From positions 26,598,001 through 26,662,000 of the forward strand of contig NC_091476.1 in NCBI RefSeq assembly GCF_036971445.1: a stretch of 64,000 bases of DNA, in the 5' to 3' direction. The DNA comes from Narcine bancroftii. Taxonomy: Eukaryota. The notes under the pieces are model-generated. The model saw only the letters and a list, made by a program, of their open reading frames with translations. It was not told the origin of the DNA and did no database searches. A program made the translations under genes and the position numbers. Shown one piece after another: positions 21,127 through 62,799 of this stretch (positions within the stretch are counted from its first letter, which is position 1; every line of letters starts with the position of its first letter).

Positions 21127-21444
21127 TGGTAATTCCTTCTCCCCACAGAAAAAGAGAAGGAAACAAGTCAAAGCTACAGGATTGTTGACCGATATAATAA
21201 TGTTTCACACTATTTGAGCAAGATATGGAGGTTATCCCTCACCTCTTACCTGTTCTTGCCGAAGCCTGGTGAGCCAAAGCCTTTACCTCTCTGACTCAGC
21301 CCATTCTGATGATAACCACTCTCTCAAAGAGATTTAGATTGTATCAATACTCAACTATAAAAATTACAAAATGAAGATATAACTAATCTTTCATTTCTGT
21401 GTTCAAAGCAGCTCCTGCAGAAATGTTTATCGTTCTTTTAACAG

Positions 21445-22394: not shown

Positions 22395-22563
22395 AGTGCA
22401 GGACATGAACTCCAGTCCCGATCACTGGCGCTGTAAAGGTTGAATCTGCTGCTGTTAGTACAAACTCCTTACAGATTGTGTTGGGCTCGAACCCCGGACC
22501 CGATAGCAGCAGATTCAACCTTTACAGCGCCAACGATCGGGACCAGGATTCGAGTCCTGCACT
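22395..22563. repeat. Fold-back (inverted) SINE-derived structure
   Basis: 22395-22453 is the imperfect reverse complement of 22505-22563; the loop is also SINE sequence. Confidence 0.85.
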
Positions 22564-23274
22564 ATCTCCAATTTATATTGGAGATTAACTATTATATAGT
22601 TAATAAATAGTGGCAGATTCAAAATGTGGTGGACCACAGATCGCCAGATAATAGAAGTTCAACCTGTACTAACCCTCTCCATCCCATTAGTGTATACAGA
22701 TGCATGGTCCCTCAGTCTCCACTTCCTAATATTCACAAAGGTGCTGGAGATACACAACAACTTATCCTGTATCCATGAAAAGAAACAAGAAATTAACATT
22801 TCTAGATCAGAGAACCAAGAAATTATGCAGGTTAGAATCATAACAATAAAACTTTATTTTTAATAGTTAAAATTTATGAGAAGTTGGAGATCGGAATGCA
22901 AATGTAGTTTCTGTCGGCCTGAATTTGATTTTCAATGATGGATGTGGCAGAGGTCAAGCCACTGTTCAGGAATTATGTGTCGGCAGGGTCTTTGTGATGG
23001 GGAAGTTATGGGGTCAAAAAGTTTTCCATGTTTAAATATGAGACCGTGGTTGCAGTTCAATGGGATCAACAGAACATCATGAAATAATGTCCATTCTTCC
23101 CCTTTAAATTTCCATATCTTGCTCAATTAGTGTGAAACATTATTATATCAGTCAACAATCCTGTAGCTTTGACTTGTTTCCTTCTCTTTTTCATTTAATG
23201 TCCTATATGAGTTGGTTCCTCAAAGATTTGCAGTCCAACAGCACTTTTCCCAACTGGTCTCTCTGTTGTTATCT

Positions 23275-23595
23275 ACCCCAATGGCTGAGTTATAAGAAAG
23301 ACATAATTAAACTAGAAAGGATGCAAGTAAGATTGATGAGAATTTTGTCAGGACTGGAGAGCCTGGATAGTCGAGGACCCTTTCACTGAAGCGTAGGATG
23401 CTAAGAAGATGACCTTATCACTCTTAAGGTGAGAGGGAAATGATTTGAAAGGGACATGAGGGGCTACATTTCCACACAGAGGGTGGTTTGCATTGGGAGT
23501 CTACAAAGGAAACTGTAGAGAGGGGTACAATTTAGGTTTAACAGCTTGATCTGCAGGGATGAATTGGGCCAAAAGGCCTTCTGTGCTGTATGATA
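23275..23595 (+). mobile_element. CR1 3' fragment, old
   Basis: YKKDIIKLERMQVRLMRILSGLE; CACACAGAGGGTGGT. Confidence 0.8.
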
Positions 23596-24984
23596 CAAAT
23601 ATAATATTTCCTTTAATTTCACATGCTCATCAATCTTACCATTTCAGGTACAATGCTCACTTGCTGAAAAATGCAAATCATTATCTGAGGTTAAAATCCT
23701 TGAGAAAATGTAATTGGCTGTATTCTGCAAGCAATATTGAAGACAAGGTCCTACTCTCTGCATACAGCCTGGGTCCTGGATATGTTCACTGTATTATTAC
23801 AGGCTTCATGGTGATTTTATTATTTTTCATATTCTTTTGGGAGGTGCTAACCTAAAGGAAAGCTGTCCACAAATATCCAGAGGTCTGTGTCATATCGGTT
23901 ATCTGGATTCCCCAGTTGAATTCCAGAAGACTCTAGAATCTTATAGCCATAATGTCTTCAAGATGATCGAACAGCCAAATAAATTGTAAATTCTCACAAA
24001 CGGATGGAAAGGCACTATGTGATCTAATATTTTAAAATATTTTACAGAGCATAAAATAAATATTGGAACAAATACATAAGCAGCTAATATATAGTTAATA
24101 AATATTGAAATATATAAAAAATTTACTTTTTTCAAATTATTTAGACAAGGGAATTACAATCTATGCCACTTCTTTAGAGTTGCTGTGTACTAAATATGAA
24201 ATATAATGTTGAAGAAACATACTTTTACTAATATATTATAATACTTTCAGGATATTCCACAATGAGATGTTTATAAATCCAAGAAATCCATGTGGTGCTG
24301 AAGTCCCATAACAGTGGTCTGTGGAGATGTGGATTTCTTTCTTAAACTACCCTTGTGCGGGAATTGCAACGTTGATGTCAGATTCACAGTCAGTTCTGCT
24401 GGTTTTGCCATTGTTGCAATCACTGTATCCAAGTCAATCAGTGGCTCTATTTAACAAAATGAGGCTTCTGGAAATCAGACCATGCTGCCAGGAAATCATC
24501 AATCAGCAATTTGAAGACCTTAATATAACATCCTGAATAATCCCAATTCACTGACTACTACAATAGGCATCTCTTTTTTTAAAAAAGTGCACAGTGGGAA
24601 CTATTTTAGCAAAGATTTATTTTGTTAATCTTTATTCAGAGAACATTTTGAAGTACTCCCAAAGCAGAGCATTTCTCTCTAATGGCTGGGTTAATGACAG
24701 TCAGAGAGCTAATAAAAGCACAAGGCTCCCAGGGTGAAAATCTACTTTGAAAACATACAATTCTCAAAGAGACACAAAGTCTAATTAATGCCTTGGGTTC
24801 ATTCCTGATGTTGACATTGCTCTACTTGACGAAGATGCAAAAATTTACCATCGTTACTGAACTAATCGTTCAAAGGCTCATACAAAAGATTCACAGCCAC
24901 AGGTTCAAGTTCACCTTAGCATGGGGGAATTAAAATGTGATGAAATTGAATCTCTAACCAAAGTACACGATGATCTGGTCACCA

Positions 24985-25210
24985 GAACCCGTTGGGGCAA
25001 AGAATTCCAGACTCTAACGACCCTCTCAGAGAAAAAAAATGTCTACGCCCCTCAGTTTAAAATGATATGTCCCTGCTTTGTTATTATGTCCCCTTGTTCT
25101 CCTACTGGTGAAAACATTTACCTTATCACTCCCCTTACGGTATTATTCGTTCGAATAAAGTGATCCCACATTCTTCTGAGCACCAAAGAAAACAGGCCCA
25201 AACGATATAT
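24985..25210 (-). mobile_element. CR1 3' fragment, old
   Basis: AGAATTCCAGACTCTAACGACCCTCTCAGAGAAAAA is the reverse of FFSERVVRVWNSL. Confidence 0.65.
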
Positions 25211-26119
25211 CTTTATCCTTGCTGGCTTCTATGTTTGTTCAGATTCATCATTCTGTTGACTGTCAACTGGCCTCTGAAGTGCTCTAAGAAAACAATCTTT
25301 CAAGAATTACTAGGGAGAGATATAAATGGTGATCTTGCATAAATAATTACTTTGCATAAAATATATTTAAAAAATTAAACCCTACTTGCAGAAATTACTA
25401 CATTTTTAGGTTTTGCACTCCAGAAATCTAAACACAACCAGAGCACCCATTGACATTTTGAATGTGCTACTAACCCTTTCACATCACTATATGTGGCTCA
25501 TTTTTCCCTTTATGTTTTATCCTCTCCAACAACATATCAAGGTCAAGGGTTGGGGGGGGGGGGAGCCACAATTGTTTGTATTTACATTTTAACTTTCAAT
25601 GAGAAGGATTTTTACCAATGCATTGCAAGGCAAAAATTGAATGCTGTGCCAAAGGAAAAAACATTAGGAAGAGTGATATGATTGAAAGTTTGGTGATATA
25701 GCTAGATATTGAGGGAAAGTTTGATTTTAAAGAGGAAGATGGAGATATTGTGATAAGTTAATTGAAAAAAATGAGCTGAGGAGAATGACTAAAGTATGAA
25801 GTTTATAAAGAATAGGTTTTGATGACTTTCCAATGTTTAACTATAAACAATAGCACCTTATTACACAACAGGGTCTGTAACTATTCAGACTGGGATCACT
25901 CTAAATACATACTCCCTTCCCTGGATTACTCTCTCCATTGAAGACAAGGTCAGATTTACTCTCTAATTCCTTGGCATGGATCAGGCAACGTCTCACTATA
26001 TCTTCTTCCTACAACACCAGAGAGCTCCCCAGTCAGTTTATTTGAGGGGAGGTGGTTTTTATCACCTTTGATTATGAGAATTAATAATTTCAGCAATGTT
26101 TTCCAGTATTGTTGGTTAA

Positions 26120-26500
26120 AAGTTCAAAGGTAAAAGTTTAGAATGCAAACATGACAACCCTGAGATTCTTTTTCCTGTGGGCCAGACAGAATTTCTACTT
26201 ATTGGTAACTGTAAATATACTCAAGAAAAAGGTATGCATGCAAAAGAGAGAAAGAAATGTAAACAAATTAACTGCAATAGAGAAACAAAAATTTTCAGTA
26301 ATGAATAATGTGCAAAGTAAGACTCCTTAAATGTTTAGGGGTAGCAGCGAGAACAGTGCATGATCTGGGTGGTGTGGATCCTTGATGATTGCTACTGCTC
26401 TCCATTGGCAGTGTTCCATGTAGATTTTCTTGAGGGTGGAAAGAGTTTTGCATGTAATGTACTGGGCTATGTCCACTACCTTTTGCAGGCCACTGTTCTG
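26120..26500 (-). mobile_element. Rex1/Babar 3' fragment
   Basis: LQKVVDIAQYIT...IYMEHC..RAVAIIKDPHHPDHALFSLLP. Confidence 0.85.
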
Positions 26501-26894
26501 GAGGAAGTAAATCCAAGATCCTATGTTGTCAGAGCAGAGGATAGTCAAATATTGAGGAGGAATTGAAAGAGCCTGCTGAAAACGCAAGTGACGCTGCAAG
26601 AACAGACAAATGCCAAAGATCCAGCCTACACAGCAGCAGAGGAATCATTTCCAGTGCTAGACAGTAGTGGACCAGCAGAGTTGGATTAAGAATATGCACC
26701 TGCATTAAGAAGATCCATATGCATTATCGAAGCATCTGATAGACTGCATCTCTAAAAGACACACATTAAAAAGTATGTGCTGCTGATGTTTGTGTTTAAC
26801 TTTAAATTGAAATGAATATTGTATTGCTGTGTAATATTGCTAGATTGAATATCTTAAGGAAAGGGGATGTGGTGATTGGAATTAGTGATCCTCC

Positions 26895-26912
26895 TGACCA
26901 CTAGAGGGAGTC
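26895..26912 (+). promoter_or_regulatory. Candidate CTCF-binding motif
   Basis: TGACCACTAGAGGGAGTC, a common variant of the CTCF core; motif match only. Confidence 0.35.
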
Positions 26913-28842
26913 AGAGATGAATATTCCGCATTTGGTTAGATGCAAAAATGGATGCCCAATGCGGACGTGGGTTATTAATAAAATGTAATTAATACAAAAA
27001 AAAATGTCTTTGTTACAATAAAAGAAACATTCTGCATTCCTCCTGTCTGGCTGCTGACAGCTGACACCCTTCTGGAATTGGTGTGAAGCAAATTGCCAAA
27101 TACTGCATTCAGTTGTATCCGATCTGGTAAGAAACTGGACTGTAAAGCACTTTACCACTCTTTCAAATGTCTGGTTTAACAATTTCACAACTTTTTGTAA
27201 AGAATCCTGCTGGGTAATAACACAAAATAGCATAATGTTCCGTGTACCAAAAGATGATAAAATTCAATTTTAAAACAATAATCTTTTTCAGTGGTATTAA
27301 GGAAGTTATATTTGATAACCAGGTGGTTTTGTGCTCCAGTGAGAGTAAAGATGTTTGATATGAATGGAAATGATGCTGTCATTGACTTTTGGAACTGATC
27401 TGAGCACAGGTGAGAAATAAGCTAACATAGATGAAGGTTGAAAAAAGAATGAAAGCAGAATACACTGGAGATAAACAACAGGTTAAGTTGCAGTTGTGAA
27501 GAGAGCAATACCATTTTAGTTCAATCATCTTTTATCAGAACTGTTAAAATGAGGGAGAAAGCAAGCAAGTTTTTAATTACATAGTGAGGAGTGGAAGGAA
27601 CAAAGGGAAGGTCTATTATAGCGAGCAAACCAAAACCAGACAGACTGTGGTCTTTCCATTAGAAAGTCCAGAACTCAATTACAGAAACAAGGTGTTGAGT
27701 CCCAATGAGGATTAGGCTTTATGCTTATCCTCATAGTCTGCATTAATATTGAGATCTCAGTTAAACAGTTAGTGAATTAGTTTTGATGAACCTCTGACTT
27801 GAATTCCTCGTAATTATTTTCAGTATATGGTTTGTCTATTGATCTATTAAGTAAACTTATTTTATAGCTTCCTCATTGAGGGTATACTTTTCAATTAAGA
27901 TTATATCATTTATTGTTTCCGCCAAGCTTCACATTGTGCCATCCTTTGTCATTTTATCACCGAAGGACTAATGATTCCTATAATCTGTTGCCAGCAACAC
28001 CCTGAAGAGATACTTTTCTTTCCGACAAAAAAAAAGATTGAGATTATTTTAGCGAATTACTTGCTAATACATTGTGGCAAACTGAAATGATTTGCTGAAT
28101 GAATTAACTTGCTGAATGAACAGTGGGACACATTGAAGGGATTTGAAGAAGTTGTTCACAGCAGTGTTGACCTATCATCGGTAAGTTTGAATTTAGTTAC
28201 TATTTTGTGTGCACCTGATTCTGTAGCCCCTCTAATAGATCAGAGTTCACGTTTTCTCTTTCCCGATTCCCTGGATCTGTGCCTCACATTCCAGAAATCA
28301 CTTTCCTAAACCTCTCTATTTCCTTCTAAGACCTAATCTTTAGATCTTCCTAAATACCTCATTTTAGATCGTAAGAGATAGGAGCAGAATTACAACATTC
28401 AGACCATCGGGTCCACTCCGCCATTTTAATATACAAACATTGTTTGTGTTTAAGGTGCCATATAACTTGTTGCTTTTCCATCTTAATAGACCAAATAGAT
28501 CATTTCACTATTAGGTGTCAACAAGTCAGTGATGAATCTCCCAGAATTTGGATTAATAGGCACAGAAAAAAATATTAGCTGACCATTATTTTGAAGTAAA
28601 GTTTCCCAGGTTAAATAAGGTAAGTTCTTGTCTGGTCCAAAGGAAGATTCAATTTGGAAGAGGTCTGCCTTGTTGGTTTAATTTTTGATGATAATTACAT
28701 GTCATCTCCGTACTTATAAACAGCAAATTCAAAAGAAGCCAATAACCCAAGATGTGCATCCAAAGCTATTGATTCATCCATATTTAATGCATGCAATAAG
28801 GGAAGACTTCAAAGGCACAATCCCTTTGCAGGGTAATTGCCT

Positions 28843-28938
28843 GTAAATATGTTTCCTGGTGCTGACTGGGTAATCACTTCTGCTTCATGCCATCTATGGG
28901 GACACTTACCTTGACAAGCATATGGGAGATAGTTTCAA
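28843..28938 (+). repeat. Donor of an exact 96-bp local duplication (copy at 30011-30106)
   Basis: GTAAATATGTTTCC...GATAGTTTCAA identical at both positions. Confidence 0.97.
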
Positions 28939-29544
28939 ACAGCTGTCTGTTATATGGAGCACAGAATTCAGGTGTTCTCTCCACAAATAAATATAATGGA
29001 ATATGTATCAACAGGCCCATAACCAAAGTCAGAACTGGTTAGCATTCATTTTGACAACAAACTGCAAGGATTCTATCAATAATGAGCTAATCCATGTAAA
29101 CAAGTAAGCAACTGGGCTGCTTTTAATCACAGCAGTGTTAATTACTGAACTGTCACAGTATGGCAGCATTAAGCAAGAGCAAAGTAATATTATGTGCTGT
29201 AATCTTTATGATTTAATTAACTAATCAAGGGAATAGGAATGAAGGCAACAATGTAACATTCAAATTGTTAATGCAGTGAGTTGGGTTTTGCAATTAATTT
29301 ACTTCATGTGAAAGATGAAACCTTTTGAGTGGAACAGAATGCTTAGAGATAATTATCTCTTATGGAAGTGCTAAGGAAACGTCTTTGATTCTTCTTAGAA
29401 TCCAGCACTGACTGGGATTGATAGATGCTGGATAAGTGAACTTTCCAGTTGCTTGAGGCTGCGTGTTGCGTGAATGGAGAATAAATGTCAAGGAGCGCCA
29501 ACATTAAACTTCTGTATGTTTTACCCACTTATTTAGGTATAAAT

Positions 29545-30730
29545 TTTAAGATAGTCAAATGGATTGAACATTGGCTGAAAGGGAGAGGCCAGAGAGTGGT
29601 AGTGGATAATTGTCTGTCAGGTTGGAGGCCGGTGACCAGTGGTGTGCCTCAAGGATTGGGCCCATTGTTGTTCGTTATATACATTAATGATCTAGATGAT
29701 GGGGTGGTAAATTGGATTAGTAAATATGCAGACGATACTAAGATAGGTGGAATAGTGGATAATGAAGAAGGTTTTCAAGGATTGCAGAGGGATTTGGGCT
29801 GCTTAGAAAAGTGGGCTGAAAAATGGCAGATGGAATTTAATGCTGATAAGTGTGAGGTGCTTCATTTTGGTAAGAAGAATCAGAACAGGACATACGTGGT
29901 AAATGGGAGAGCATTGATGAATACAGAAGAGCAGAAAGATTTAGGAGTAACGGTACATCGTTCCCTGAAGGTAGAAACTCACGTGAATAGGGTGGTGAAG
30001 AAGGCTTTTAGTAAATATGTTTCCTGGTGCTGACTGGGTAATCACTTCTGCTTCATGCCATCTATGGGGACACTTACCTTGACAAGCATATGGGAGATAG
30101 TTTCAATCATTGCATGGAATATAGGAGTTGGGAGGTGATGTTGAGACTGTATAAGACGTTGGTGCGGCCTAATTTGGAGTTCTGTGTGCAGTTCTGGTCG
30201 CCTAATTATAGGAAGGATATAAACAGAGTGGAGAGAGTGCAGAGAAGGTTTACCAGAATGTTACCTGGGTTTAAGCATCTAGAGTATAGGGAGAGATTGG
30301 ACAGATTAGGTCTTTATTCTTTGGAGCGTAGAAGGTTGAGAGGGGATTTGATAGAAGTATTTAAGATTATGAAAGGGATAGACAGAGTGGATGTGGATAG
30401 ACTATTTCCATTAAGAGGAGGAAAGATTAAAACAAGAGGACATGAGTTAAGAATTAAAGGGCAGAGGTTTAGAGGTAACATGAGGGGGAACTTCTTTACT
30501 CAGAGAGTGGTAGACGTGTGGAATGAGCTTCCGGGAGAAATAGTGGCGGCGGAGTCAATTGTATTATTTAAGAAAAGGTTGGACAGGTATATGGATGAGA
30601 AGAAGATGGAGGGTTATGTGCATTGTGCAGGGAGGTGGGACTAGAGGGGGGTGTTTGGTTCGGTGTGGACTAGAAGGGCCTAATGGCCTGTTTCCGTGCT
30701 GTAAATTGTTATGTTAAATTGTTATGTTAT
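29545..30730 (+). mobile_element. Young 5'-truncated CR1/HER1 LINE (RT C-terminal half)
   Basis: Long stop-free frames: VTSGVPQG, FVIYINDL, YADDTK, WQMEFNADKC, LYKTLVRPNLE, RRRLRGDLIEVFK; tandem AAATTGTTATGTT tail. Confidence 0.96.
30011..30106 (+). repeat. 96-bp templated insertion inside the CR1 ORF
   Basis: Identical to 28843-28938; interrupts the KKAFS...NHCMEY reading frame. Confidence 0.95.
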
Positions 30731-31129
30731 TATTTTTTTTGCCAGTCGCCGGTTGCTTGAATTCCGGATTACAGGATTTTACTATATTAGAGTACAAACA
30801 TACATTGTACTTTCAAAAGAAAGAATTATAGAAAGGTGGACATGGATTGACCCAAACTACTATGTTCTAAAGCAATTAAATAACTGTCCATTACTATAGT
30901 TGTAGCAGTATAACACTTAAATGAATGTCCTCTAGTTTGTTACTATATAGCTTTAATCCAGCACGAGAAAAACAATTGAAATGAAATACTTTCTCTAACT
31001 CCATCATATAATTCAATAAAAAATACAAGTTATTTTTATGTTAACTACAGAAATAATTCTGTACTATATAATCTGCATATATGAATATAAATCTGTGGAG
31101 GAAAATTGTGGGGTGAAAATCCAATTGGG

Positions 31130-32110
31130 TCTCAAACTGTAACAAGTGTGTAGCATGCAAATATTGATTATAATATAACTGATTCTTGATACATTTTTAA
31201 AATTTCAATCTTCCAGTAAAGGGTTAATATCGGTTATTTATGATAAGTTGGCTGGTGTAAGACACACTCCTTTAGTCCAAATTAAGAATTGCTTGGAGCA
31301 AGATTTGAACCTTTCACTGTCCAACAAGTTTTGGGACTCTATTTTCAAAATGATTAACACCTAAAGTCAAATTATCTCGTTTTTATTCAGATATAATCCA
31401 CATTGTGATAAATGTAAAATATGTGATGCTTCTTTAATTCATATGTTTTGGAGATGGCACAGTTTGGAAAAATATGGAAGAGTAGTTTTCCAAACATAAT
31501 TGGTGATTCTTAATTTAAAATTAGAACAAATTCCTTTAGTTGCTCTTTTTGTAATTCTTGGAGACGATGATGTTTTATTAACTCCAATTAAATGTTGCAT
31601 TTTATCTTTTACTTCTTGTTGGCCAGGTGTGTTATTTTGATTAAGTGGAAAGATAATACCCCACCTATTCATGCACAATGGCTACGGGATGTTATATCAT
31701 GTTTAAATTTGGAGAAAAAATAGATATGCAAATGTTTCAAACATTAGATTCCAAAAGTTAAGGGGCCCCTTCGTAGATTACTACCATAATCTCTAGTTGC
31801 AGCGTTGTTATAGAATTTTGACAATGTATTATCACACTTCAGAGTGAGCTACTTTGTTTCATTAACATTAACTTTCAACCTTGTTTAGGGCTAGGAGTTT
31901 TGATATATTTAAAATTATTGTGTCCATTGTTTATTATTATTGGCTGTGCTTTGGGAATTCATATGTATGATTATTTTCATGGTGTTTTTCTTTATCTTCT
32001 TTTTTTCTGTAGCACATTCCATAATTGTACTGTTCAAATTTATTATTACTGAAAATAATTTTTTTTTTAAAGTATATTATTTTAAATATGCTTAATGATT
32101 TATTAAATAT
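31130..32110 (+). mobile_element. L1/Tx1-type LINE 3' fragment, old
   Basis: CDKCKICDASLIHMFW zinc-knuckle motif near 31400-31455; downstream LEKK...RF.K-like motif and AT-rich UTR. Confidence 0.7.
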
Positions 32111-32169
32111 AGAGTTTAGCACTTTTTAACAATTTATAATCCTTTTAACAGTATAATTTAAAAATATAT

Positions 32170-32520
32170 TTTTGAAGGGATAGAGATAGAATAAATGTAG
32201 GTCAGCTTTTTCCACTAAGGGTAGGTGAGACACAGACCAGAGGACATGGGTTAAGGGTGAAAGAGGAAAAGTTTAGAGAAAACATTAGGGGAAATTTCTT
32301 CACACAGAGAATGGTGGGAGTATGGAATGAGCTGTCAGCTGAAGTGGTGAATGCAGACTTAATTTTAATATCTTAAATAATTTGGACAGGTATATAGATG
32401 AGAGGGGTATGGAAGGGTATGGATTGGGTGCAGGTTTATAGGACTGGGAAGAGTAATAGCTTGGCTCAGCCCATAACGGTCAAAGGGCCTGTTTCTGTGC
32501 TGTAATGTTCTATGATTCTA
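32170..32520 (+). mobile_element. CR1 3' fragment
   Basis: TRGHGLRVK.EKF..NIRGNFFTQRMVGVWNEL; TTCTATG tail. Confidence 0.88.
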
Positions 32521-35002: not shown

Positions 35003-35174
35003 CAGTGGTTCTCAACCTTCCCCACCCGCCCCCTCCCCCACTCACATACCATTCTAAGTAATCCTTTACTAACCATAGAGCACCTGAGGCATCCCATGCC
35101 ATGGGTGTTCTGTGGTTAGTAAGGGATTACTTAAGGTGGGATGTGAGTGGAGGAAAAAAAGCTGAGAACCACTG
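35003..35174. mobile_element. hAT/Charlie-type palindromic MITE
   Basis: TIRs CAGTGGTTCTCA / TGAGAACCACTG; almost the whole element is an inverted repeat; 8-bp TSD not evident. Confidence 0.8.
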
Positions 35175-35774
35175 GCATAGGTAAATACAAAGTTATTAAA
35201 TGCCTAACTTAATAAAACATAGTAGGTCACAAAAATATGTTTGTATAAAGGGATTGATGGAAATTAAACTGTTCAATCCTTACACCTGTTTTCTGAGTTA
35301 ACCCTCAGTGAAGCTTCTAAGAAAAGTACAGGGCACCATCAGAGGAAGTCAGCCCAAATTATTATTGAACACTTTATTGTGGTTGATGGGAAGCAACTTT
35401 TACAAAGGCAGGAAATAGGTTCACATTCTGCAGTCCATCGACTCTATGATCAAGGGAACAACAAATAAAATGAAAGATTGTGGTAGTATCTGATAAATAA
35501 AAAGAAATAGATTTGTTCTTAGTGCCAAAGTCCCACTGAAAATCAGCTGAACTTTTATTTTCCAATGCATTGGCACTAATCTATACCTTTGTGGAAAATC
35601 TCACAATGAGCAAAGTGTTGCAAGCTTTATTTGAATGCATCACCTGGAAAGGTCAAGAAGGACAATAACATCAGCGGAAGCATCTGATTTTCACATTAAA
35701 TGGATTTTCTATTAGTAATTCTGGGAATATTATGCATAAATGCATGAATATATGGATTAGGATGAGGTGTAGGT

Positions 35775-35990
35775 AGACACCGTGATTGTACTGAACACAC
35801 ACCAAAATGCTGGAGGAACTCAGCTGGTCTTTTGCTTCATGGAATAAGCAGAATGAGCCAGAAGCAAGAAATCTTAAAAAGTCTCAGAATTCAGACAATG
35901 CTCAGGCCTGAAACATTGGAAAAATATCTTCGTCTCCTATGGACGCTGAAAAGAACGGCTGCGTTCTTCCAGCATATTGGTGTGTTTTTA
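35775..35990. mobile_element. Palindromic Penelope-terminus element
   Basis: ATGCTGGAGGAACTCAGC ... GCTCAGGCCTGAAACATTGG ... GCTGCGTTCTTCCAGCAT. Confidence 0.7.
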
Positions 35991-35994
35991 GAGA

Positions 35995-36915
35995 CATGGA
36001 CCTATTCTAATTTGCCTATCGCAGCAACAGTTCTAGGGCAGATGACATCTCACTGGTTCTTCACAAAACTCTTCACAGCAAAGATGCAAACACCAGGATG
36101 CTCCTCGTCGACTACAGTTTGGCATTCAACATCATCATCCCCTCAAAACTCATAGGTAACCTCTAGGACCTGGGCCTCAATACCCCACTGTGCAATTGGG
36201 TCCTGAATTTCCTCACCCCCGGATCACTCTCAGTGCATATTGGCAAGAGCATCAATTTCACAATCTCCGTCAGCACTGGAGCACCATAGGGCTGAGTACT
36301 TAGCCCCCTGCTCTACCTGCTTTACACCTATGACTGCGTGGCTAGGTTCTACAACAACACCATATTTGTTGATGACACCACCATAGTGGGCCCTATAAAA
36401 GGGGGACTTAATTCAGCATGCAGGAGGGAGATTGAAAACTTGGCTGAATGGTGTACTAACAACAACCTCATTCAATGTCTCCAAAACCAAGGAGGTAATT
36501 GTAAACATTAGGAAAGGAAAACCAGACGTATGTGAAACTCTTCCCACCATTGACTTTGCCCTTGGAAAGCAGGAGGACATGTTCTGTTCTCACTGCCTCT
36601 ATCAGGAAAGTGGTATAGATGCCATAGGACTCACCCCATCAGGTTCAAGAATAGTTGTTACCCCTTAACTATCAGACTCCTGAACAATAGACTCATTCAG
36701 AGATTCATTTAAGGACTCATATTTGTCTCATTATTTCTTACTGTATAATTATACAGTACTTCTGTATTTGCACAGTCAGTTTGTTTGCAGTTCTTTCTTT
36801 CTTTGAGTACAGTTTTAGTTAACGGGTAATTAGAAATTCTTCCTGGCCTGCAAAACAAGTATCTCAGGTTTGTGATGTGATGTTTGTTCTCTGATGATAA
36901 ATATGAAGTTTGAAA
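35995..36915 (+). mobile_element. Rex1/Babar RT fragment with internal deletion
   Basis: DYSLAFNIIIP, STGAP*G, DDTTIVG, NVSKTKEVIV; 3' UTR and tail. Confidence 0.85.
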
Positions 36916-37034
36916 TTTGACAATTAATTTTCTGTAATAATTTTCAATGCAGTACGTTACCAAATGCCATCCAAAATCCATGCGTAGCAGATCCACCCAC
37001 ACTTTATCTGCAGTGCCTGTTACTTCTTCAAAGA

Positions 37035-37992
37035 ACTCCAATAAATTGGTCAGAATCCTTTGTGGGATGTATTACCTATGCTGATGGTCTTGTAAACCAC
37101 CTCCAAACATCAGGGAAGCCACAGAGGTCTATGCCAAAGCTGCTAGCACCCATGCTGAGCATCCTAGACCATGAGGGTTGCTGACTCTATGGGAGCAGTG
37201 GTCTTGCCAAGTTTTCAATCTCTCTCCTCCATGCTGAATCAAGCCCCCCTTTTATACGGCCCACTATGTTGGTGTCATCAACAAACATGTATATGGCGTT
37301 GTTGTAGAACCTAGCCACACAGTCATATGTGTAACGCAGGTAGAGCAGGGGGCTAAGTACTCAGCCCTATGGTGCTCCAGTGCTCATGGAGATTGTGAAA
37401 TAGATGTTCTTGCCAATATGTACTGATAGTGATCTGGGGGTGAGGAAATTCAGGATCCAATTGGGGTATTGAGGCCCTGGTCCTACCCTGCTGAGGAGAA
37501 GCTTGAAGTGGACCCTACAGACATAGAGACTACAGCAGCAGAGTAAAGAGGGGCTCAGTGGCTAAAGGCCCACACCAGGCTTCACGCTGTTGGAGGCTGG
37601 CTCGAGGGATTCTGGTATCAGGACTGTGATTCTTGAGGGTGCTGTTGGTGAGCAGAACTCCCAAAGAGCCTCAGGCACTGACAGCTTCCTGACTGTATCA
37701 GGTATTTGGAAGCAGGGGCTGAGGAGCATGAACTGGATGCCTGGAACTTGGGTTCACTGCCAGAACTGAAAGGGGGCCACTTATCTATGGAGGGAAGCCA
37801 GGACATAGCAGGGTAGAGGAATCCATAGTCCCTTGATGTCTCTGAAGGACTATCTTTTGCTTCTTGGTATTTCTCTTCTTGGTATGGGCATTGAATAAGT
37901 GGCATGTCCCTTTGTGTGCTTTTACGAGCAAACAAACGTAAACAAATATTGTGCATTTATCGGCTTGACAAAAAAAAGAACCCTGAATCTTG
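37035..37992 (+). mobile_element. Unclassified non-coding retroposon-like insertion with Rex1-like tail
   Basis: Splits a CR1; ends ...CTTGACAAAAAAAAGAACCCTGAATCTTGA; no recognisable ORF. Confidence 0.5.
37206..37485 (-). repeat. Inverted ~280-bp copy of Rex1 segment 36164-36444
   Basis: About 90% identical by eye; shares the GAP*G stop codon and other apparently copy-specific changes. Confidence 0.88.
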
Positions 37993-38754
37993 ACATGACT
38001 TCCCTTTCACAAAGCTATGTAAACTTTACGTGATAACTTTGATTTTTTTATGTGCTCTGTTCTAACATTTTTGGTATAGCCTTTTCCCTAAGGCATGTGT
38101 TAATCTAACTGATTGGTACTTTCCTGCATTTGTGTCCTGCCTTTCTTTTTCAATCAATGAGTTAAATTTACTCTTTTAGAATCTAATAGAACTTTTCTTG
38201 AATCCATGAAAATTAGGAAAATTAAAACCAATCCATTAATTACCTCATCTCCCACTCCATTTAAGGCTCTTGGATGAAGTTCATCAGGTCACTCGATCCT
38301 CTTAGCTGTAGCCTCTACAAAGTACTCAGTCCCACTTCCTGTTAACTTTAATTTTCCTCTGTTCCTCCGTCTCTTACAATTCTTGCTCCAAACATAGTCC
38401 TGGGAAAGTATGTGATCTTCTACTGTGAAGATTGATGAAAAGTTCCTGCTAGGTTTATCTGCCATTGTCCCAATTTCCATGATTTGTTTCCTGATCTTAA
38501 ATTGCTAGAACCGTTCGATACTAAAGGACGTCAAAATCTCTCAACTTGGGGAAGCACTGGGAGCAGCTCTAGTATTTTCTTACCTCTCTCTAAATTTTAT
38601 CTTTCCCTCAAAGGATAGTAACGTATCTTTTCAATATGGGTTCGGTTCTACTCCTTCTGTCAACCATGGAAGGAAAGTTTACATGGCAAAGAACAAACTC
38701 ATGCATCTCCCAACTGCTCAGTAGTTTTTTGTGATCTCATGCACAGTCTCCTGT

Positions 38755-38895
38755 AAAAACTTGGCGGATCAACCTTCATCAAAGCTCTTCCTGAAGGGTT
38801 CCAACCTGAAACCTGGACCATTCTTTTTCTCCCACTGATGCTGGTGAACTTGCTGAGTTCCTCCAGAAGATCATTTCATCGATCCAGCATCTGTG
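38755..38895. mobile_element. Penelope-terminus fragment
   Basis: CTGAAGGGTTCCAACCTGAAAC...CTGATGCTGG...TGCTGAGTTCCTCCAG. Confidence 0.6.
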
Positions 38896-39379
38896 CTTCT
38901 CCTATTGAGATCCTATCCCTGTCCATTGGATTATCTGCTGTGGTTGTTTATGCATTCAGAATCAGATAATTATTAGAAAAGCTGAATGTTTTAAATCAAA
39001 ACTCACTACACCATTATCTGTTCCATCTCTAGGCCCATCCCTCCTCTCATTCTTCAGATTGATTGTCAAGCAGACGCTGGACAAAATTCAAACAAACTAC
39101 TCAACTGTTCAGATCTAATTTTTAAAGTGATCAGAGCCCATCCGAGCAGAGCACATTTCAAACCAGTTGACTCTGCCATGCACCTCTGATACACTTTATA
39201 CCCAATCTCAATATTAATCTAATTATCCAGATGTATTATTCCATAACAAAATGGCACTTTCAGCAAACACAGGGCCTGACGAGACTGGCATTTTGAGAGA
39301 CAGACTGTAAAGAAAATAGAAGTCTGTATTTTGACACAGAATGCAAACTGTAATAATCAAAGTGGATAGAATTCAGCTC

Positions 39380-39740
39380 TGGATTCATTCCAGCATCTGT
39401 GCCATATTAGCTACTGTCCGCTGAAGCACTGATGAACCAGAGAGAAGAATCAGCCACTGTTTTCATTGCTTCTGTAGTAATCTCTATTGGAAAGTGTTGC
39501 TATCAGTCAAGAAGATCATTGGGCTCGATCTTGAACAATTCACATTGGATCAGCTCCTCAGCAGCCAATGTCCAGGCCAACATCAAAAACAGATGATCAT
39601 TAACTCATCACAGGAGCTTGCTATGAAGAAATAATTGTTGTTTTAGATATTTAACACTTGTGAGTACAGTTCAGAATGCAGCATTCCTTTAAAGCATGAG
39701 GTCTTGAATGGTGCTTAATCACATTCCCTATAGAGTCCTT
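39380..39740 (+). mobile_element. Ancient Deu-domain SINE-like remnant
   Basis: GGAGCTTGCT...ACACTTGTGAGTACAGTTCA...GAGGTCTTGAATGGTGCT resembles my recollection of the SacSINE1/DeuSINE 3' part; very degenerate. Confidence 0.35.
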
Positions 39741-41260
39741 CCTTGCTATTCCTTTCAATCGCAGGTCTAAAATGACCATTTCTGATCTCTGGCAAAAGGA
39801 AACCAGTGATCACGGAACAGTACTTCAGCATGAATGAGTGCTTTCAGGAGATGGTGGAAAGAATCGGAAGAAATAAACCTGAAAGAGGAAAATCACTTTC
39901 CTTTGTTGAGGTAAGCTAAGATGTTAAAAGCTGTCTCCAGAAGTGAAATATTTAATGTAATTTTTCAAGGTTTAGCATTCTGTATTGCAAACATTTGTAT
40001 GAAATGGAAGGGGTGTGCTGGTACCAACATTTGCATCTGCCACAGGTATAAGCCAGTAAAATCCTGAACTACCCACAGACACTGCAGATGTGTCCTTTCC
40101 AGTCCCTTGGTGTGTTTAGTCTTGTCAAAGAGGGAGCAGAATCAATAATTTCTCCCAGAAGGTTTAACTTCAGTTTCCTGCTAATTTTTCTTACTTAAAA
40201 TCAGAGTTAATGTGTCTGAATTAGTGCCACTTTCACCAACTTTTTGAGAGAGAGCTTAAGGAAGATTAATGGGAAATTGAACTGAGGTCTGAACCTGCTC
40301 CTGTGGCAGACCAAGCTCCTGTTCATATATAATCAATGTTAACGTCCTTTTCTTGCAATTTCCATCCTTCAGCTGAGCTTTTGTTTGGCTTCTGGCATCC
40401 TACCTTTCGGCAAAGGGCCACTCTAGGTGTGTGATCTTTGCCTGTCGACTGCTTTGTGGCAATGCCCAATTTTGTCTTCAAATAACATCCTTCTGTGTGC
40501 ATTGGATCACCGGGTAATGGCAAAGGACATTGAATAATGATAACTACTTCAATCCATTTTGGCTCTGAGTTCAATTCCAGTGTCCCGAAGGGTAATGCTG
40601 GGTGAGACTAGTTAGCCATGTAGGAGTCAGGAATAAGCCTGTCACAGTGTTCAGTGTTCACTGTATTTCTATCAGTGGTGTCACAAGTGACTTTTGACAT
40701 AAGCAGCTGGATGCTGCGCTAAAACAGCAATAAAGTAAGATTTCCTGCTCCTAGAGAAAGGACAAGGATGCAATTTGAATGCTTTGTGCTGATACATTTT
40801 AAATAAAGGCTTACCTTTGAGGCATTGACCTTTCTAATGTGTGCTCTTCATTTAAAATGCTGTATAATGCAAACTGTTGCTGTACAATTCATGGGTTTCC
40901 TCAGAAACAAATATCAGCAATAATTTAAATTGATATTTACATAAAATGAACAATCCCGGCTCATCTCAGATGAAAACCAGTTCACTTCCACTTGAACCTA
41001 ACATTTTATCTGGATTTAATCAAATGTTGGTGCCTTGAAACCCAAAGTACACACGACATGTTTTATAAATAATCCAGAAAAATCTTTCTCTAGTTTGCAG
41101 AATTTATGATAAAATGAGAAACTTTGTCATTCTTTCCAGTCAGATATGAAATAGGTTTCAGGCTAGACATGATATATTCCATCATGTTCCTGCATTCCTT
41201 TACTCAAACAAGATAAGCCAGGTGATTAGAGGATTCACCAAACTTAGAAGAGTAAAATTG

Positions 41261-41576
41261 CAGATGGTCCCCGAATTATGGCTGTAGTTAGTTCCAAGGA
41301 CCCAGTCATTCCTCAAAATGGCCACAAGTCGGAACTCCACTGTAAACCTCTGTACCCATTTAGAGTTTGTTAAATCCAACATGGTGGCGCCCAAGCCAGC
41401 TCTCATGAGAGGTTGAAAACCAAGGCCTGCTCTCACGAGAGGTTGACCACCATTGCCAGTGACACTATTTTTGAAAGGTAGGCCCCTACTTTCATCAGAA
41501 AAGCATTAATTTTTATATTTACATACATTTTTTTTTCGGTCATATGTCACATCAGTGACAGGTCAAGGACTACCTG
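41261..41576. mobile_element. Tc1/mariner (Tigger/pogo-like) MITE
   Basis: TIRs CAGATGGTCCCCGA / TCAAGGACTACCTG followed by TA; internal ~30-bp tandem duplication at 41390-41446. Confidence 0.65.
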
Positions 41577-41824
41577 TATAAGTTCACTTTTCTCTACTTC
41601 CTCGCTAGCATCTGCAGCCTCTTTTGCTTCCATTTGTTTGAGAACCTGTTGTTAAATATTTTCTTCATCAATAGAGGCGATGCCTGAAGACGATCTATCA
41701 ATTTTGCATGCATGCAGCATGCCCCTTTATATGAACAAGCTTCAATTTAAATTACTGATCATTTTATGCCCATTTCTAGTACTCTCTCTGCAGTCACCAA
41801 CTCTTTTTACCCTCAGCATTTTTT

Positions 41825-42025
41825 AAAAAATTAGACGTATTTAGACGCGGTAACAGGCCATTTCGACCCACGAGTCAGTGCAGCCCAATTTCCACCTAAT
41901 TAACCTACACCCTGATCCGTTTTTGAACTGTGGGAGGAAACCGGAGCCCCAGGGAGAACATACAAACTTCAGTCCCGGTCACTGGCGCTGTAAAGGTGTT
42001 GCACTAACGCTTTGCTAACCATGTT
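41825..42025 (-). mobile_element. HE1-type SINE with internal deletions
   Basis: GGTAACAGGCCATTTCG...GGGAGGAAACCGGAGC...CTGGCGCTGTAA...CTAACC. Confidence 0.8.
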
Positions 42026-42411
42026 GCTGATAACAAATTATGGATATGACCAAGTGACATAGAGGTTAAGGCCTCCATCTTCATGTCCATCCGTTATCTC
42101 TTTGCTAAAGGCAAAACAATCATTTGATATTCCAGCCTTTCCCTTTGCGTGAATGCGTACATTCAGTTTAGTCCCTCTTTGGCCCCATTACACTTGATAT
42201 CTACTTACGATTTACAAAATGGAAAATTACTTGAGTTTGTTTTTATACCAGCTACCATTCTCCACATAAACGTGCCAATTTACTTTCCAACTCCCTTTTC
42301 AGCTTATGTTTTACAAGGTTCACACTTGAATTCCTACTATACTTCTGGTCCTTTGGAACTCGAGAGCCTTGAACCAAGAGTGGAGACCTGAGGAACTCAT
42401 GCATTGCCTTG

Positions 42412-43464
42412 AGTCAAGTTAAGTCAAGTCAAGTTTATTGTCATCTGTTTGCACAAGTACAACTCGATGAAACAGCGTTCTCCATTCCTCAGTGCAAAAT
42501 ACGTAGGCACACAACCAGACATAACACGCATACAGACAAATAATGCATATGCAGGACATGTATTTCATCTGTAAAAATAAATAAATAAATGTTGTTTCAT
42601 GAACATAAGAGTCTCTGATGGTTAGGGAGAGCAGTTCTTTTGGGTGTTCAGTAGTCTCACTGCCTGTGGGAAGAAGCTGTTCTTCAACCTGGTGGGGCTA
42701 GCTCTGATCCTCCTGTTTCTCTTTCCTGACAGGAGCAGCTGAAAGATATTGTGTGCAGGGTGGAAAAGGTCCTCAATAATTTTGTGTGTCCTCTTCAGAC
42801 AATGATCCTGATAGATCATTGGTGGTGGGGTTGGTGGTGGGAAGGGAGACTCCAGTGATCCTCTCTGCCACTCTTATGGTCCTGTGGATTGACCTCTGAT
42901 CCATTTCTCTGCAGCAACCATACCACATTGTGATGCAGCCGGCCAGGACGCTCCCTATAGAACTCCTATAGCATGTTAAAATAATGGTGGTTAGTAGCCT
43001 TGCCTGCTTCAGTCTTCTCAGGAAGTTTAGTCGCCTTCCTGACAAATGAAGAGAATTTGAGTGTCCACAATAGGTCACTAATTATATGAACTCCAAGAAA
43101 CTTGGTGCTCTCATCCTCTCTACTATAGAGTTGTTGATGTGTAGTGGAGGGTGGTTGCTCTTGTCCTCCCGAAGTCCACAATCATCTCCTTCGTCTTGTC
43201 CACGATGAGGTTGTTACTCTTGCACCATTTCACCACTTCTTCTCTGTAGTGCGACTCATCGTTGATGTGATAAGGCAAACAACTATTGTGCCATCTGCAA
43301 ACCTAATGACACTTGTTGGAGCTGAATCTGGTGATGCAGTCGTGGACCAGTAGCAAGAATAGCAGCAGGCTGAGCACATAGCTCTGAGGTGCGCCAGTGC
43401 TCGACGTTCTGCTACTGACCTGAACAGACTGTGGTCTTTCCGTTAGGAAGTTCAGAATCCAGTT
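42412..43464 (-). mobile_element. Rex1/Babar LINE, 5'-truncated
   Basis: NWILNFLTERPQSV, TGAPQ, FLRRLKQA, RLKNSFFPQAVRLLN; (CTTGA)n tail. Confidence 0.92.
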
Positions 43465-44593
43465 ACTGGTATAATTAGCTTCTAGCAAGCAGAAACATCT
43501 TGCTTAGCACGTGTGTGGTTCCATCCAGTGGGGAATCTTCCCCTTACTTCTCTTAATTTTAATTTTGCAAAAATTCACTTTATTTTTGTACATGTTGCAC
43601 AAGCTTCTGTCTCTGAACCAACATCAATGTTATGCAAACTATTGCTGAACAAATTTCTCTGTGTGAAGGGGTTGCATTGGTAGTAAAGCTGAGTTGGTTG
43701 GTCTGAGTTTATTATTACCATTGCTGTTAGATTCTTCCTTAAAAGGAAGAGTCTTGCTGTGAATTGATGTCCATATATTCATAGCTAGAATTCCTGCCCT
43801 CACATGGTGCTTCTGCAATGGAGCCTTCCCTGGTGTTTGCTGTCACATTTGAAATTGGGTACTGTCAAAATTACTCAGCAGTTTTCACTACATTTTCATT
43901 ATGATGGCAAGTCCGGTCAAATGAAAGACACTACTTGGTTTAGAAAATCGCACTGAATCCTGCTGCATGTGAATTTTCACTCTCTTGATTGACTTCAGAA
44001 TTCACCAAAGTTGCAATGTCTGATAAATCTTTTAATACAATGGCATAGTCACTGAATATTTCACCTGCTGTTTTCTCCGTATGCAGAACATGTACAGTAA
44101 TTCCTTGCTATTTCAAATACCTGTGGATTTAAATTATCATCCAATTTTTGCACCACTTCTGTGAAAGGATCGCATCTGTGGCTTTCTATGGGACTACAAG
44201 CTGGTGATATTCCCAAAGCTAATCTTTATCAACAAAATAGCCTCTCATACTCTTGCATTGAACACTGAGTGCTGCACATTTTTAACATCATCAAGATTAT
44301 TGTTTCTGCAAAAGAATACTTCCATCCTTGTCATGTGGCCTGTGAAAGACTCATATATCTACTGTACATTCCCAGAAAGCCAGCAGAGCCCATCTGCTAT
44401 TTGTCCCAGTTGCCATCTGAAATGTTGCATGCAAACTTCCTCAACTCCACATTCATTTCCCTTCATGCCACAAATTATCCATGGCCTTCCTCTTTTTCTG
44501 GAATTGTTCTTTTCTGCATTTTTTCCAACTATAGTAACTGTGCACTGAGAATAATGACTTTGATCCCTTGTGACTGCATCACCAATCAAATAT

Positions 44594-44835
44594 TTTTAAA
44601 TGTAGAAATACAGCACAGAAACAGGCCCTTCTGGCCCCATGAGCCAGCACTGTCCAAATATACCCATGTGACTGATTAACCTACAAACCCTGTTCGTCTT
44701 TGGAATGTGGGAGGAAACTGGATTACTCGGAGGAAACCCATGCAAACTCACGGAAAGCGTACAAACTCCTTACAGAGAGCACTGGATTCGAACCTGGCAC
44801 TGTAAAAAATATTGCATTAACCGCTACACTTACTG
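44594..44835 (-). mobile_element. HE1-type SINE (donor of the copy at 46923-47074)
   Basis: Full SINE motifs TACAAACTCCTTACAGA...GGATTCGAACC and CR1-like tail. Confidence 0.88.
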
Positions 44836-45079
44836 TTATTACAGCTCCATTTTCCTGGTCTAACTCCATGATTCTATTAACACCTAAAGATAACTGCTAT
44901 CTCCAGAAGACCCAGGAGCTTTCAAACATGGGAGCATGTCATTTCACAGAGTGACAATAACTGATACATGTGCTTACATCAACAAATGATAACACCATTG
45001 TGTCACTTGCACACGACTCATCTGCTATCTTTAAGAAATGATTGAACCCTTGCAGCCCAGACAGTGAAGGTGCTCTCAC

Positions 45080-45242
45080 AATACTGGCCATTTGGAATTC
45101 TACAGCCTTGAATGAGGAGTGCAGCCATGAGGAACTCCTGCGTGGTCTTGGACTGGTATGATTAGCTTCTGGCAACCACAACCATCTTACTTAACACAAC
45201 ATGTGGTTCCATCCAGTGGAGAATCTTCCCCTTGCTTCTCTT
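45080..45242 (+). repeat. Old ~165-bp direct repeat; other copy is 42341-42411 plus 43465-43554
   Basis: Colinear similarity (about 76% left part, about 85% right part by eye) across the Rex1 insertion. Confidence 0.8.
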
Positions 45243-46922
45243 TATATCATTTTTTTTTTGCCTTGAAGCCACATCATTCAAATGCTGTTTTGACATCTAG
45301 GGATGAGGCAGGTGGGACCAAGTGTAAGAGCTCATTGGTCTCTACTTTCTACTTCCTATTCTTAAAGAATCACCCTGTTCTGAACTACAGTATTTATGTT
45401 TTCATTCAGAGCACTCACACTGCCTAAGCAATGCTGCCATCATGTGCTGCAATAGTTGTACTGCAGAAGAATCCACTAATGAAACATTATACTGTACTAA
45501 CACTTAGTTTCGTCTGCAATTGCAGGGCTGCGTGTTCACAATGTTCAATCACAGAACAACCTGTCTAGACAGGAAAGGAGAGCCATAAGTTTAGATCTGG
45601 GAGAAATGTACAGAATGGCCACCAACTTAATGTAGGTTATTGCACGAATTATGAATGTAATGTTGGTACAAATACTTTGAAGTGAACTTGAGAACTTGTT
45701 TTGAGTATAAACAAGCAAAACAAAATCCTACTAAATATAACAATGTAATGATGCCGTCCATCACTATTCGAGGTGATTTGTTCTCTGTGCAGTTCCTCCA
45801 CTGCTGTCCGGGTGGAGACATTGCACAAGAGTTGAATTCAGCAACAATTTGTAATTGATGAATTTCTCGAATGGCCAGGGAAATTATAGGAGGAAAAAGC
45901 TTGATGCTGGTAGGAAAGGGTTCTCAGTATTTTTAACCTGCTGAGTTTTCATCCTCTTTATCTGAAGGAGCAAAACTGGTGCTTTCTCCCTTTTACAAAG
46001 GTACAAACCCAATAATCACTGAAACAGGACCTACAGCCCACCAAGTTCTCACCATAAAAGCACCCATTTACACATTCTACATTAATCGCATTTTGGTTGA
46101 TAAATCCCACAGCAGAAGCTGGTTTCTGAGGGTTGCATTCAGGTCCAGACTGCAAATGTAAGGCACGAACTCATTATATCTTCTCTTATGCTGGAGATAC
46201 ATCCTTAACCTGTTAAATAACCACTGTTGATGAGAGTGAGTGTTGCAGACAAACACTCTATCTGAAATTGAGTACACTTCTGTAAAGTTGTAAAGTCAAA
46301 CTCATATCTTTACAAATGAAGAAAAATGAAAGTGATCTGCGACAATACAGCAATATATTACAGTTGATTGTAAAAATATTATATTTAATTCCTTCATCTC
46401 TACTTTTATGGTAACTATCTGAACATGTCCCTTATCAGGTGTGAAAAAAAATTATTTGAATAAATTTAATTCAACAATAAAATTTGATCATTTTACTGCC
46501 TTTTTCTCTATTCCTCAAATTCCTTTCATACACAGACAGCTTGTGCATTAATGTGTGTGTCCAAACACACTCTCTCTCTCTCTCTCTCTCACTCTCTCCA
46601 CAGTTAAGGTACCTTTGCACATAGCAAAGACTGAATATGGCTGGATGGTACTGTGGCCCATTATCAGACTGGTCAATCACTTAAATCATGGCAGAGCAAT
46701 TACCTATTATCAATGCTCCCTGCTCATCACCTTTTTCCTTTTGAAAGTAGTCGTTGAAGCAAAAAGGTAAACGCTAGTCCGTTATTTGGTGAGTTCCATG
46801 TGGTAATCATTTATTTAAGGAAAGGATAATTGTGTATGCAGTGGACCTCCAATAATCACAATCCAATTATTTGGAAATCACAATGGTTCAGTACCTGATT
46901 CATTACTCTGTGCAGTACCTGA

Positions 46923-47074
46923 AAATGTAGAAATATAGCACAGAAACAGGCCCTTCTGGCCCCATGAGCCAGCACTGTCCAAATATACCCATGTGACTGA
47001 TTAACCTACAAACCCCGTTCGTCTTTGGAATGTGGGAGGAAACTGGATTACTCAGAGGAAACCCATGCAAACTC
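46923..47074 (-). mobile_element. 152-bp copy of SINE 44598-44749, flanked by a 19-bp direct repeat
   Basis: 149/152 identical; ACTCTGTGCAGTACCTGAA at 46905-46923 and 47071-47089. Confidence 0.93.
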
Positions 47075-47554
47075 TGTGCAGTACCTGAAGTCTTGAGCAT
47101 TCTGGATTAACAAAATATAATGCTCATGTTTTATTTTATTAAATATTGAAACATAGGATGTAATTTCATTGCCGGCTGCAGCCAAAGTATTATTCTAGTG
47201 TGTAAAATTAGACCAGCATGAGACAGTTTCAATGGGTTTGAAGTGAATAAGCCATCTTGAGAGTACAATGTGATTCCATTGTAGACACCACTGCAGGCAT
47301 AATTTTATTACAAACTTTCACCATTATGCAGTTCCTGCATGAAAAATTGTGCAGCAAATCATTTGAGTTTGCAAGTTCTTCCTGTGACTACATTGACTTT
47401 CTTTGGCCGCAACAGTCCCCTTTTGCATTCCAAAGTCATGTGGGCTGGTAGGTTAATTGGTCACTGTAAACAACTAGCATAGCTGGATGGCAGGGATACT
47501 GGGTAACTTAATGAACAAGTGAGAGTGAAAGAGTTATAGGAAATAAGTGGAGGT

Positions 47555-62584: not shown

Positions 62585-62799
62585 AGATCAGAAGGGAAAT
62601 GAGTGACTTGTTCCCATTTCAAAATTTTACCTGCTTTTCTCTTCTCGCTGCTACCTTCAGGTACAAGGTACTGAACCCTGAAGTCTGGCATCTCTAGTTT
62701 CAAGAACATTTTTTTTCCTCCAGCTTTCAGGCTTTTGAGGCCTTTCCATACAGCCCTAGATATTTTTGCAGACTTCCTGCAGTCTAAACTGAATTACAG

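What the first reader, a model, noticed from the sequence alone, without database searches (positions are those of the whole stretch)
22395..47089. Cluster of locally templated 'copy-from-next-door' insertions
Seen: five separate short duplications within about 25 kb, each with its source less than 3 kb away (96 bp exact, 152 bp at 149/152, ~280 bp inverted at about 90%, ~165 bp at about 80%, and a fold-back SINE). They differ in divergence, occur in both orientations, and two show 1-4 nt junction microhomology. Known: polymerase-theta end joining, FoSTeS/MMBIR and LINE reverse-transcriptase template jumping all make templated insertions, those of Pol theta typically being short. Inference: a recurrent process in this lineage or locus copies 100-300 bp from neighbouring DNA or nascent RNA into breaks. 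This is the best candidate for an undescribed system here.
Basis: partly seen in the sequence, partly recalled or inferred. Interest (0 to 1): 0.7.

Follow-up and report, generated by a model that had tools for sequence, protein, structure and literature searches.

The report
Local copy-paste DNA repair scars
Five short pieces of DNA (82-280 bases) in this stretch are copies of DNA lying 0.8-2.2 kb away; they are likely scars of germline break repair, a kind of mutation already catalogued in humans and other vertebrates, and only their possibly higher density in this fish remains open.

Summary
In each the neighbour is the best genome-wide hit. The fold-back SINE is a dispersed family, not a local event. 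I found three more events (F, G and a 46-nt filler). Size, distance and junctions match the repair-mediated duplications of Pace et al. 2009, so this is not an undescribed system. The scan has noted the same thing in other windows of this genome and in other genomes. In 25 blocks from elsewhere in the genome I counted 12 pairs at 90% identity or more in 1.23 Mb (9.8/Mb, CI 5-17). This window has 4 in 64 kb, but it was selected for that. Pace's 0.08-0.65 per Mb of repeat uses a much narrower rule, which 0 of those 12 pairs met, so an excess over other vertebrates is not shown. B ends at its SINE's 3' end and has a 19-nt target duplication, so it may be RNA-templated.

The parts
21148..21229 (+).
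   Evidence: 2 matches in genome
23111..23192 (-). F copy 2
   Evidence: both junctions bridged by contigs of one sample (records 1, 9, 10)
22395..22563 (.). E: piece of a dispersed palindromic element built from SINE-head units; not a local event
22564..22609 (+). H: 46-nt filler replacing about 25 nt of the E family sequence; two short hairpins plus a 17-nt exact match to 24088-24104
   Evidence: longest match in 1.56 Mb lies 1.5 kb away
24084..24104 (+). Likely template of part of filler H (20 of 21 nt)
   Evidence: (D11)
28843..28938 (+). A donor, single-copy DNA
30011..30106 (+). A acceptor: interrupts a high-copy LINE (CR1-like, name recalled); 89 new nt, 12 nt lost, microhomology 3 and 4 nt
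36164..36444 (+). C donor: inside a decayed LINE piece; RT-like by eye (recalled), no Pfam hit on 3 stop-free pieces
37206..37485 (-). C acceptor: inverted copy interrupting an old dispersed repeat, roughly 10-35 nt lost
   Evidence: the host resumes in 3 of 7 other copies
42345..42411 (+). D copy 1, 5' part
   Evidence: 52/67
42412..43464 (.). Later 1,053-bp dispersed repeat that split D copy 1 (LINE-like tail, recalled)
43465..43566 (+). D copy 1, 3' part
   Evidence: 86/103
45084..45254 (+). D copy 2; donor/acceptor not determined
44598..44749 (+). B donor: 3' 152 nt of an old SINE (about 44582-44833, sense on minus strand)
46923..47074 (+). B acceptor, flanked by a 19-nt target duplication (46905-46923 and 47071-47089), microhomology 1 and 4 nt
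62637..62758 (+). G acceptor: 122 bp, 96%, interrupts a repeat (about 8 nt lost); donor 3.7 kb away, beyond the window end (L035:2508-2628)
   Evidence: not searched genome-wide

Best explanation
These are short copies of neighbouring DNA, likely written into germline double-strand breaks during repair (repair-mediated duplications). Shown: each copy's best match is its neighbour 0.8-3.7 kb away; A, C and G interrupt older repeats with a small loss; A and B have 1-4 nt microhomology; ages span 81-100% identity. Inferred: a resected 3' end pairs with nearby DNA through a few bases, is extended by 80-280 nt, lets go and anneals to the other end (aborted SDSA or microhomology template switch, finished by end joining, probably Pol theta). 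Inferred: young LINEs are a likely source of breaks. The process runs genome-wide at about 10 recent pairs per Mb, somewhat clumped, and this window is a selected high draw.
For: Best hit is the neighbour for A, B, C, D, F and for 3 of 4 outside pairs tested (pass at 93-97%; one search fails at 86%). The excess of pairs lies under 4 kb. The 20 pairs at 90% or more have mean 146 bp, median 109 bp, median gap 1.1 kb, 11 direct and 9 inverted; Pace reports mean 162 bp, median 147 bp, mean distance 1.2 kb. A is microhomology plus deletion, as in 9 of Pace's 39 proximal breakpoints; 6 of those 39 have a target duplication, as B does. Two-donor acceptors occur in three places, as the SDSA model predicts. 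Filler H has hairpins plus a local 17-nt match. Young repeats make up 5.3% of the sample.
Against: No enzyme or pathway can be read from sequence. B also fits retrotransposition. Donor and acceptor are unresolved for D and F. Read support for A is thin: one 55-nt contig crosses the right junction (30 and 25 letters, under the tool's 31-letter rule), none is listed for the left junction, and run X2 shows neither. B, C and D junctions were not tested with reads. Counts per block are overdispersed (p 0.004, driven by one block) and the window has 4 pairs where 0.6 are expected (Poisson p 0.004 before selection); plain random repair does not explain the clumping.
Confidence: 0.82

Rival explanations
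1. LINE reverse transcriptase copied local RNA into a nearby endonuclease nick (cis retroposition or template jump). Plausible for B alone (about 0.4), unlikely for the set.
For: B is 5'-truncated, ends exactly where its SINE family's A-run begins, and has a 19-nt target duplication and a 4-nt 5' microhomology. Young repeats here leave flanking direct repeats of 10-23 nt in 14 of 83 regions, against 1 of 300 random pairs in a similar test. L1 leaves 15-bp duplications with annealed 5' ends (PMC4245944, abstract).
Against: Only 1 of 44 candidate pairs has such a duplication. B lacks the A-run. None of the 21 other elements with this 3' end has a duplication over 9 nt (old copies, weak test). 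Both orientations occur. A, D and F copy non-repeat DNA and show no poly(A) tail. Transcription of the locus was not shown.
Confidence: 0.08
2. Replication template switching (FoSTeS/MMBIR) at stalled forks, without a two-ended break.
For: Same microhomology and chimeric products. In 6 of 11 outside events a repeat is cut at one junction and does not resume, like the human 'Ins with Dup and Del' class (PMC4617611, passages).
Against: B's 19-nt duplication and the small losses in A, C and G fit a two-ended, slightly resected break more simply. Sequence alone cannot separate the two.
Confidence: 0.07
3. Independent transposon copies that happen to be neighbours, or assembly artefacts.
For: True for E and for 1 of 4 outside pairs tested. 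Many near pairs are ordinary repeat copies.
Against: A, D and F have 2 matches in the genome; B and C exceed their next hit by 13 and 9 points. B, C, D and F differ between copies; D predates a later insertion; F junctions are bridged in independent contigs.
Confidence: 0.03

Closest known systems
Repair-mediated duplications (RDs), Pace, Sen, Batzer, Feschotte 2009, PMC2671141 (parts 1-6 of 8 read, plus part 1 of 15 of Table S1)
   Same: 50-620 bp copies, donor within 5 kb, microhomology, small deletion or target duplication, two-donor chimeras, continuous ages, link to LINE activity.
   Different: No cartilaginous fish surveyed. Their count needs a unique donor and the same repeat resuming within 30 bp, so 0.08-0.65 per Mb is a stated minimum and not comparable with my 9.8 per Mb. 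B and C have repeat-derived donors, which their pipeline excludes.
'Doublets' of Thomas et al. 2004 (not held; known here only from Pace's description)
   Same: Short local non-tandem duplications.
   Different: Recalled, unchecked: reported as mostly same-strand; here 9 of 20 are inverted.
'Inverted Dup' and 'Ins with Dup and Del' variants of the 1000 Genomes map, PMC4617611 (passages read)
   Same: Under 1 kb inserted within 5 kb of the source; local templates with microhomology at deletion junctions.
   Different: Human polymorphisms; here single-assembly events of all ages.
Polymerase theta-mediated end joining (PMC7615360, passages; short templated fillers recalled)
   Same: 1-4 nt microhomology; filler H with hairpins and a short local template.
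   Different: 80-280 nt tracts from 1-4 kb away are longer and farther than typical theta inserts (recalled); the enzyme was not tested.

Membership tests
Repair-mediated duplication (Pace 2009) | Insertion of at least 50 bp, donor 50 bp-5 kb away on the same chromosome | tested here: met
   A, B, C, D, F, G
Repair-mediated duplication (Pace 2009) | Donor is the reciprocal best, and only, other copy | tested here: inconclusive
   Only other copy for A, D, F; best but repeat-derived for B, C; G not searched genome-wide; the search tool warns that no match does not prove rarity
Repair-mediated duplication (Pace 2009) | Acceptor interrupts a repeat that resumes within 30 bp | tested here: met
   A (12 nt lost), G (about 8 nt), C (about 10-35 nt); not applicable or not found for B, D, F
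Repair-mediated duplication (Pace 2009) | Microhomology, deletion, filler or target duplication at junctions; no poly(A/T) tail | tested here: met
   A and B at base level; C deletion only; D and F not resolvable
Repair-mediated duplication (Pace 2009) | Empty orthologous site in a related species | not testable with these tools
   No related genome is held; no empty allele at single-locus level
LINE-mediated retroposition (for B) | Copy ends at the template's 3' end, 5'-truncated, with target duplication | tested here: met
LINE-mediated retroposition (for B) | 3' tail (poly-A or tail repeat) carried into the copy | tested here: not met
   The donor's A-run is absent from the copy
LINE-mediated retroposition (for B) | Donor transcribed in the germline | not testable with these tools
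   No RNA holder on record
Pol theta-mediated end joining | Dependence on POLQ | not testable with these tools
   Needs genetics
Locally templated event (for E) | Fold-back junction unique to this locus | tested here: not met
   Same palindrome in 5 of 5 aligned dispersed copies

The most novel reading that the evidence does not exclude
Cartilaginous fishes carry roughly ten times more recent local repair copies per Mb than mammals, clumped at the scale of tens of kb, with inverted copies drawn from nearer than direct ones (median gap 0.7 vs 2.5 kb, p 0.008, post hoc), and a minority (B) made by LINE reverse transcriptase from a neighbouring RNA in cis. Local capture would then be a major mutation class relative to point mutation in a slow-clock lineage.
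Probability: 0.22. Interest if true: 0.55.

Novelty: new member of a known kind. Interest (0 to 1): 0.24.

Why it matters
As a mechanism it is known. It would matter if a same-method comparison showed that sharks and rays accumulate such copies far faster, per point mutation, than other vertebrates: about 10 recent pairs per Mb means on the order of 30,000 in this genome (extrapolated from 12 pairs), a large natural data set on germline break repair, and a steady source of inverted repeats in introns. A confirmed cis-retroposed copy (B) would be a rare natural trace of RNA-templated local insertion.

Tried and rejected
Fold-back SINE as a local event: rejected. Regional hotspot: flanks of this window hold 4 pairs in 198 kb (20/Mb, p 0.26 against other blocks) and flanks of the richest outside block (C8, 4 in 50 kb) hold 1 in 194 kb, so no 100-kb-scale hotspot is shown. 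Gene context: 150 of 353 open frames outside repeats were scanned with Pfam; none reached a family cut-off (one weak hit, E 0.004); Rfam found nothing; no RNA holder listed. The intron-bias test could therefore not be run. Long target duplications as a class signature: 1 of 44 (null 4 of 400). Donor side bias: about 12 left vs 6 right by eye, not pursued. The orientation-distance effect got one new pair (direct, 3.0 kb), too few to replicate. Blocks dropped before counting: 3 of 28 (two pure satellite, one satellite-rich with one 604-bp pair at 92%). Pairs under 90% were left out of density counts after one failed. Thomas 2004 is not held. Searches for a report in sharks or rays found 0 papers; one search found only Pace 2009 on topic; one search found nothing on the SINE family name. 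These searches cover only the open library.

Full report
Setting. The window is G000:C17:26,598,001-26,662,000 in a 3.33-Gb genome. No exon was found, so gene context is unknown.

The observation. Self-alignment recovers all five items. A is 96 bp identical with 2 matches in the genome. Other copies of its host LINE read straight across the site with 12-13 nt that the window lacks, so 89 new bases replaced 12, with 3 and 4 shared bases at the ends. B is 149/152, next best 85%; the acceptor is flanked by a 19-nt duplication and shares 1 and 4 bases with the donor ends. C is inverted, 89%, next best 80%; its host repeat resumes in 3 of 7 other copies with about 10-35 nt missing. D is 138/170; one copy was later split by a 1,053-bp repeat, which is why it appears as two hits. 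E is not local: the palindrome belongs to a dispersed family.

Read support. Contigs of one public sample, possibly the assembly's own, bridge both junctions of F copy 2 and span the A donor. For the A acceptor one 55-nt contig at single-copy depth crosses the right junction with no difference but falls short of the 31-letter rule; the left junction is not listed and the second run shows neither. B, C, D were not tested.

How common. I fetched 28 blocks of 50 kb at round coordinates on 13 large contigs (after two mid-chromosome satellite blocks I kept to the arms, so this is not a strict random sample) and 100 kb on each side of the window. Near-identical pairs are in clear excess under 4 kb and at background by 5-10 kb. 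Keeping pairs of 50-650 bp, at least 90% identical, 50-5000 bp apart and at least 5 points better than any other hit in the sample gives 12 pairs (11 events) in 1.229 Mb of 25 blocks: 9.8/Mb, CI 5.0-17.1; flanks 4 in 0.198 Mb; window 4 in 0.064 Mb. Three of those 12 were checked genome-wide and passed; an 86% pair failed. Counts are overdispersed (p 0.004), but the flanks of the richest block hold 1 in 0.194 Mb. The window is high (p 0.007) but was chosen for it; at the mean rate about 0.4% of windows hold four or more.

Comparison with print. Pace et al. 2009 (PMC2671141) describe this class: 824 human events within 5 kb, mean 162 bp, mean distance 1.2 kb, microhomology with deletion or target duplication, chimeras, 0.08-0.65 per Mb of repeat in ten vertebrates, stated as a minimum. 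The 20 pairs here average 146 bp with median gap 1.1 kb. The raw gap between 9.8 and 0.62 is not a fair comparison. Their rule needs a unique donor and the same repeat resuming; 2 of my 20 pairs met it (A, G, both in the window) and 0 of the 12 outside pairs. That gives an upper bound near 7 per Mb of repeat (hand calculation from the 0.42 repeat fraction), with low sensitivity because my repeat library was the sample itself. In 6 of 11 outside events a repeat is cut at one junction and never resumes, which their pipeline would miss and which matches human 'Ins with Dup and Del' and 'Inverted Dup' variants (PMC4617611). A slow clock would also keep pairs recognisable for longer: 7e-10 per generation in the epaulette shark, 17-fold below human (PMC10587355, abstract and Discussion; another species, so inference).

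Mechanism. Best reading (0.82): capture of nearby DNA by a resected break end, then microhomology annealing. The products are shown; the break, the invasion and the enzymes are inferred. Young repeats (5.3% of the sample) are a likely source of breaks, as Pace argue for L1. B is the one case for RNA: it stops exactly at its SINE's 3' end and has the only long target duplication in 44 pairs, but it lacks the tail, and Pace list human events with both microhomology and target duplication. I put B at about 0.4 for retroposition. Inverted donors are nearer than direct ones (medians 730 and 2533 bp, p 0.008, n 9 and 11, post hoc, not all independent), which would fit fold-back on the resected strand.

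Verdict. Real, mostly as described, and a known kind. I had reached Pace 2009 before seeing earlier notes; those report the same in at least two other pieces of this genome and in other genomes, which is repetition, not independent proof. What remains open is a same-method density comparison. Interest 0.24.

Noticed in passing
window 22395-22563; L020-L024: Dispersed family (982 first-look candidates, 40 scored) built from SINE-head units arranged as a fixed palindrome, in some loci with extra tandem units; no Rfam match. How such an element spreads is unexplained.
   Followed up: partly
window 22564-22609: 46-nt filler with two hairpins and a 17-nt match 1.5 kb away, replacing about 25 nt of the element; looks like a Pol theta scar.
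   Followed up: yes
window 35003-35173: Palindromic MITE-like element with up to 17 hits in other blocks; dispersed, not local; hAT-like ends recalled.
   Followed up: no
window 8304-8458: Palindrome inside a dispersed repeat (up to 25 hits in other blocks).
   Followed up: no
window 51175-51677: Very young LINE piece, 99.4% to copies elsewhere; RTE-like 3' end recalled. This family is the commonest young repeat in the sample.
   Followed up: partly
L145:4158-4979 (C16, 25 Mb): One acceptor built from two local donors: a 633-bp inverted copy from 0.3 kb away followed by a 199-bp direct copy from 2.8 kb away.
   Followed up: partly
L029:882-1013 and L101:9465-9626: Two more acceptors that look like two-donor chimeras.
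   Followed up: partly
L041:4337-4562 and 5939-6759: Inverted local copy later split by a young LINE, like D; gives relative ages.
   Followed up: no
L050-L054 (C1, 250 Mb) and L080-L084 (C9, 160 Mb): Two 50-kb blocks are wholly C/T-rich satellite of different units, probably near centromeres.
   Followed up: no
window 2077-2209: Decayed 56-bp tandem repeat, 2.4 copies.
   Followed up: no
window 61413-61667 (-): Weak Pfam hit (NADPH_Ox, E 0.004, below cut-off); probably chance.
   Followed up: no
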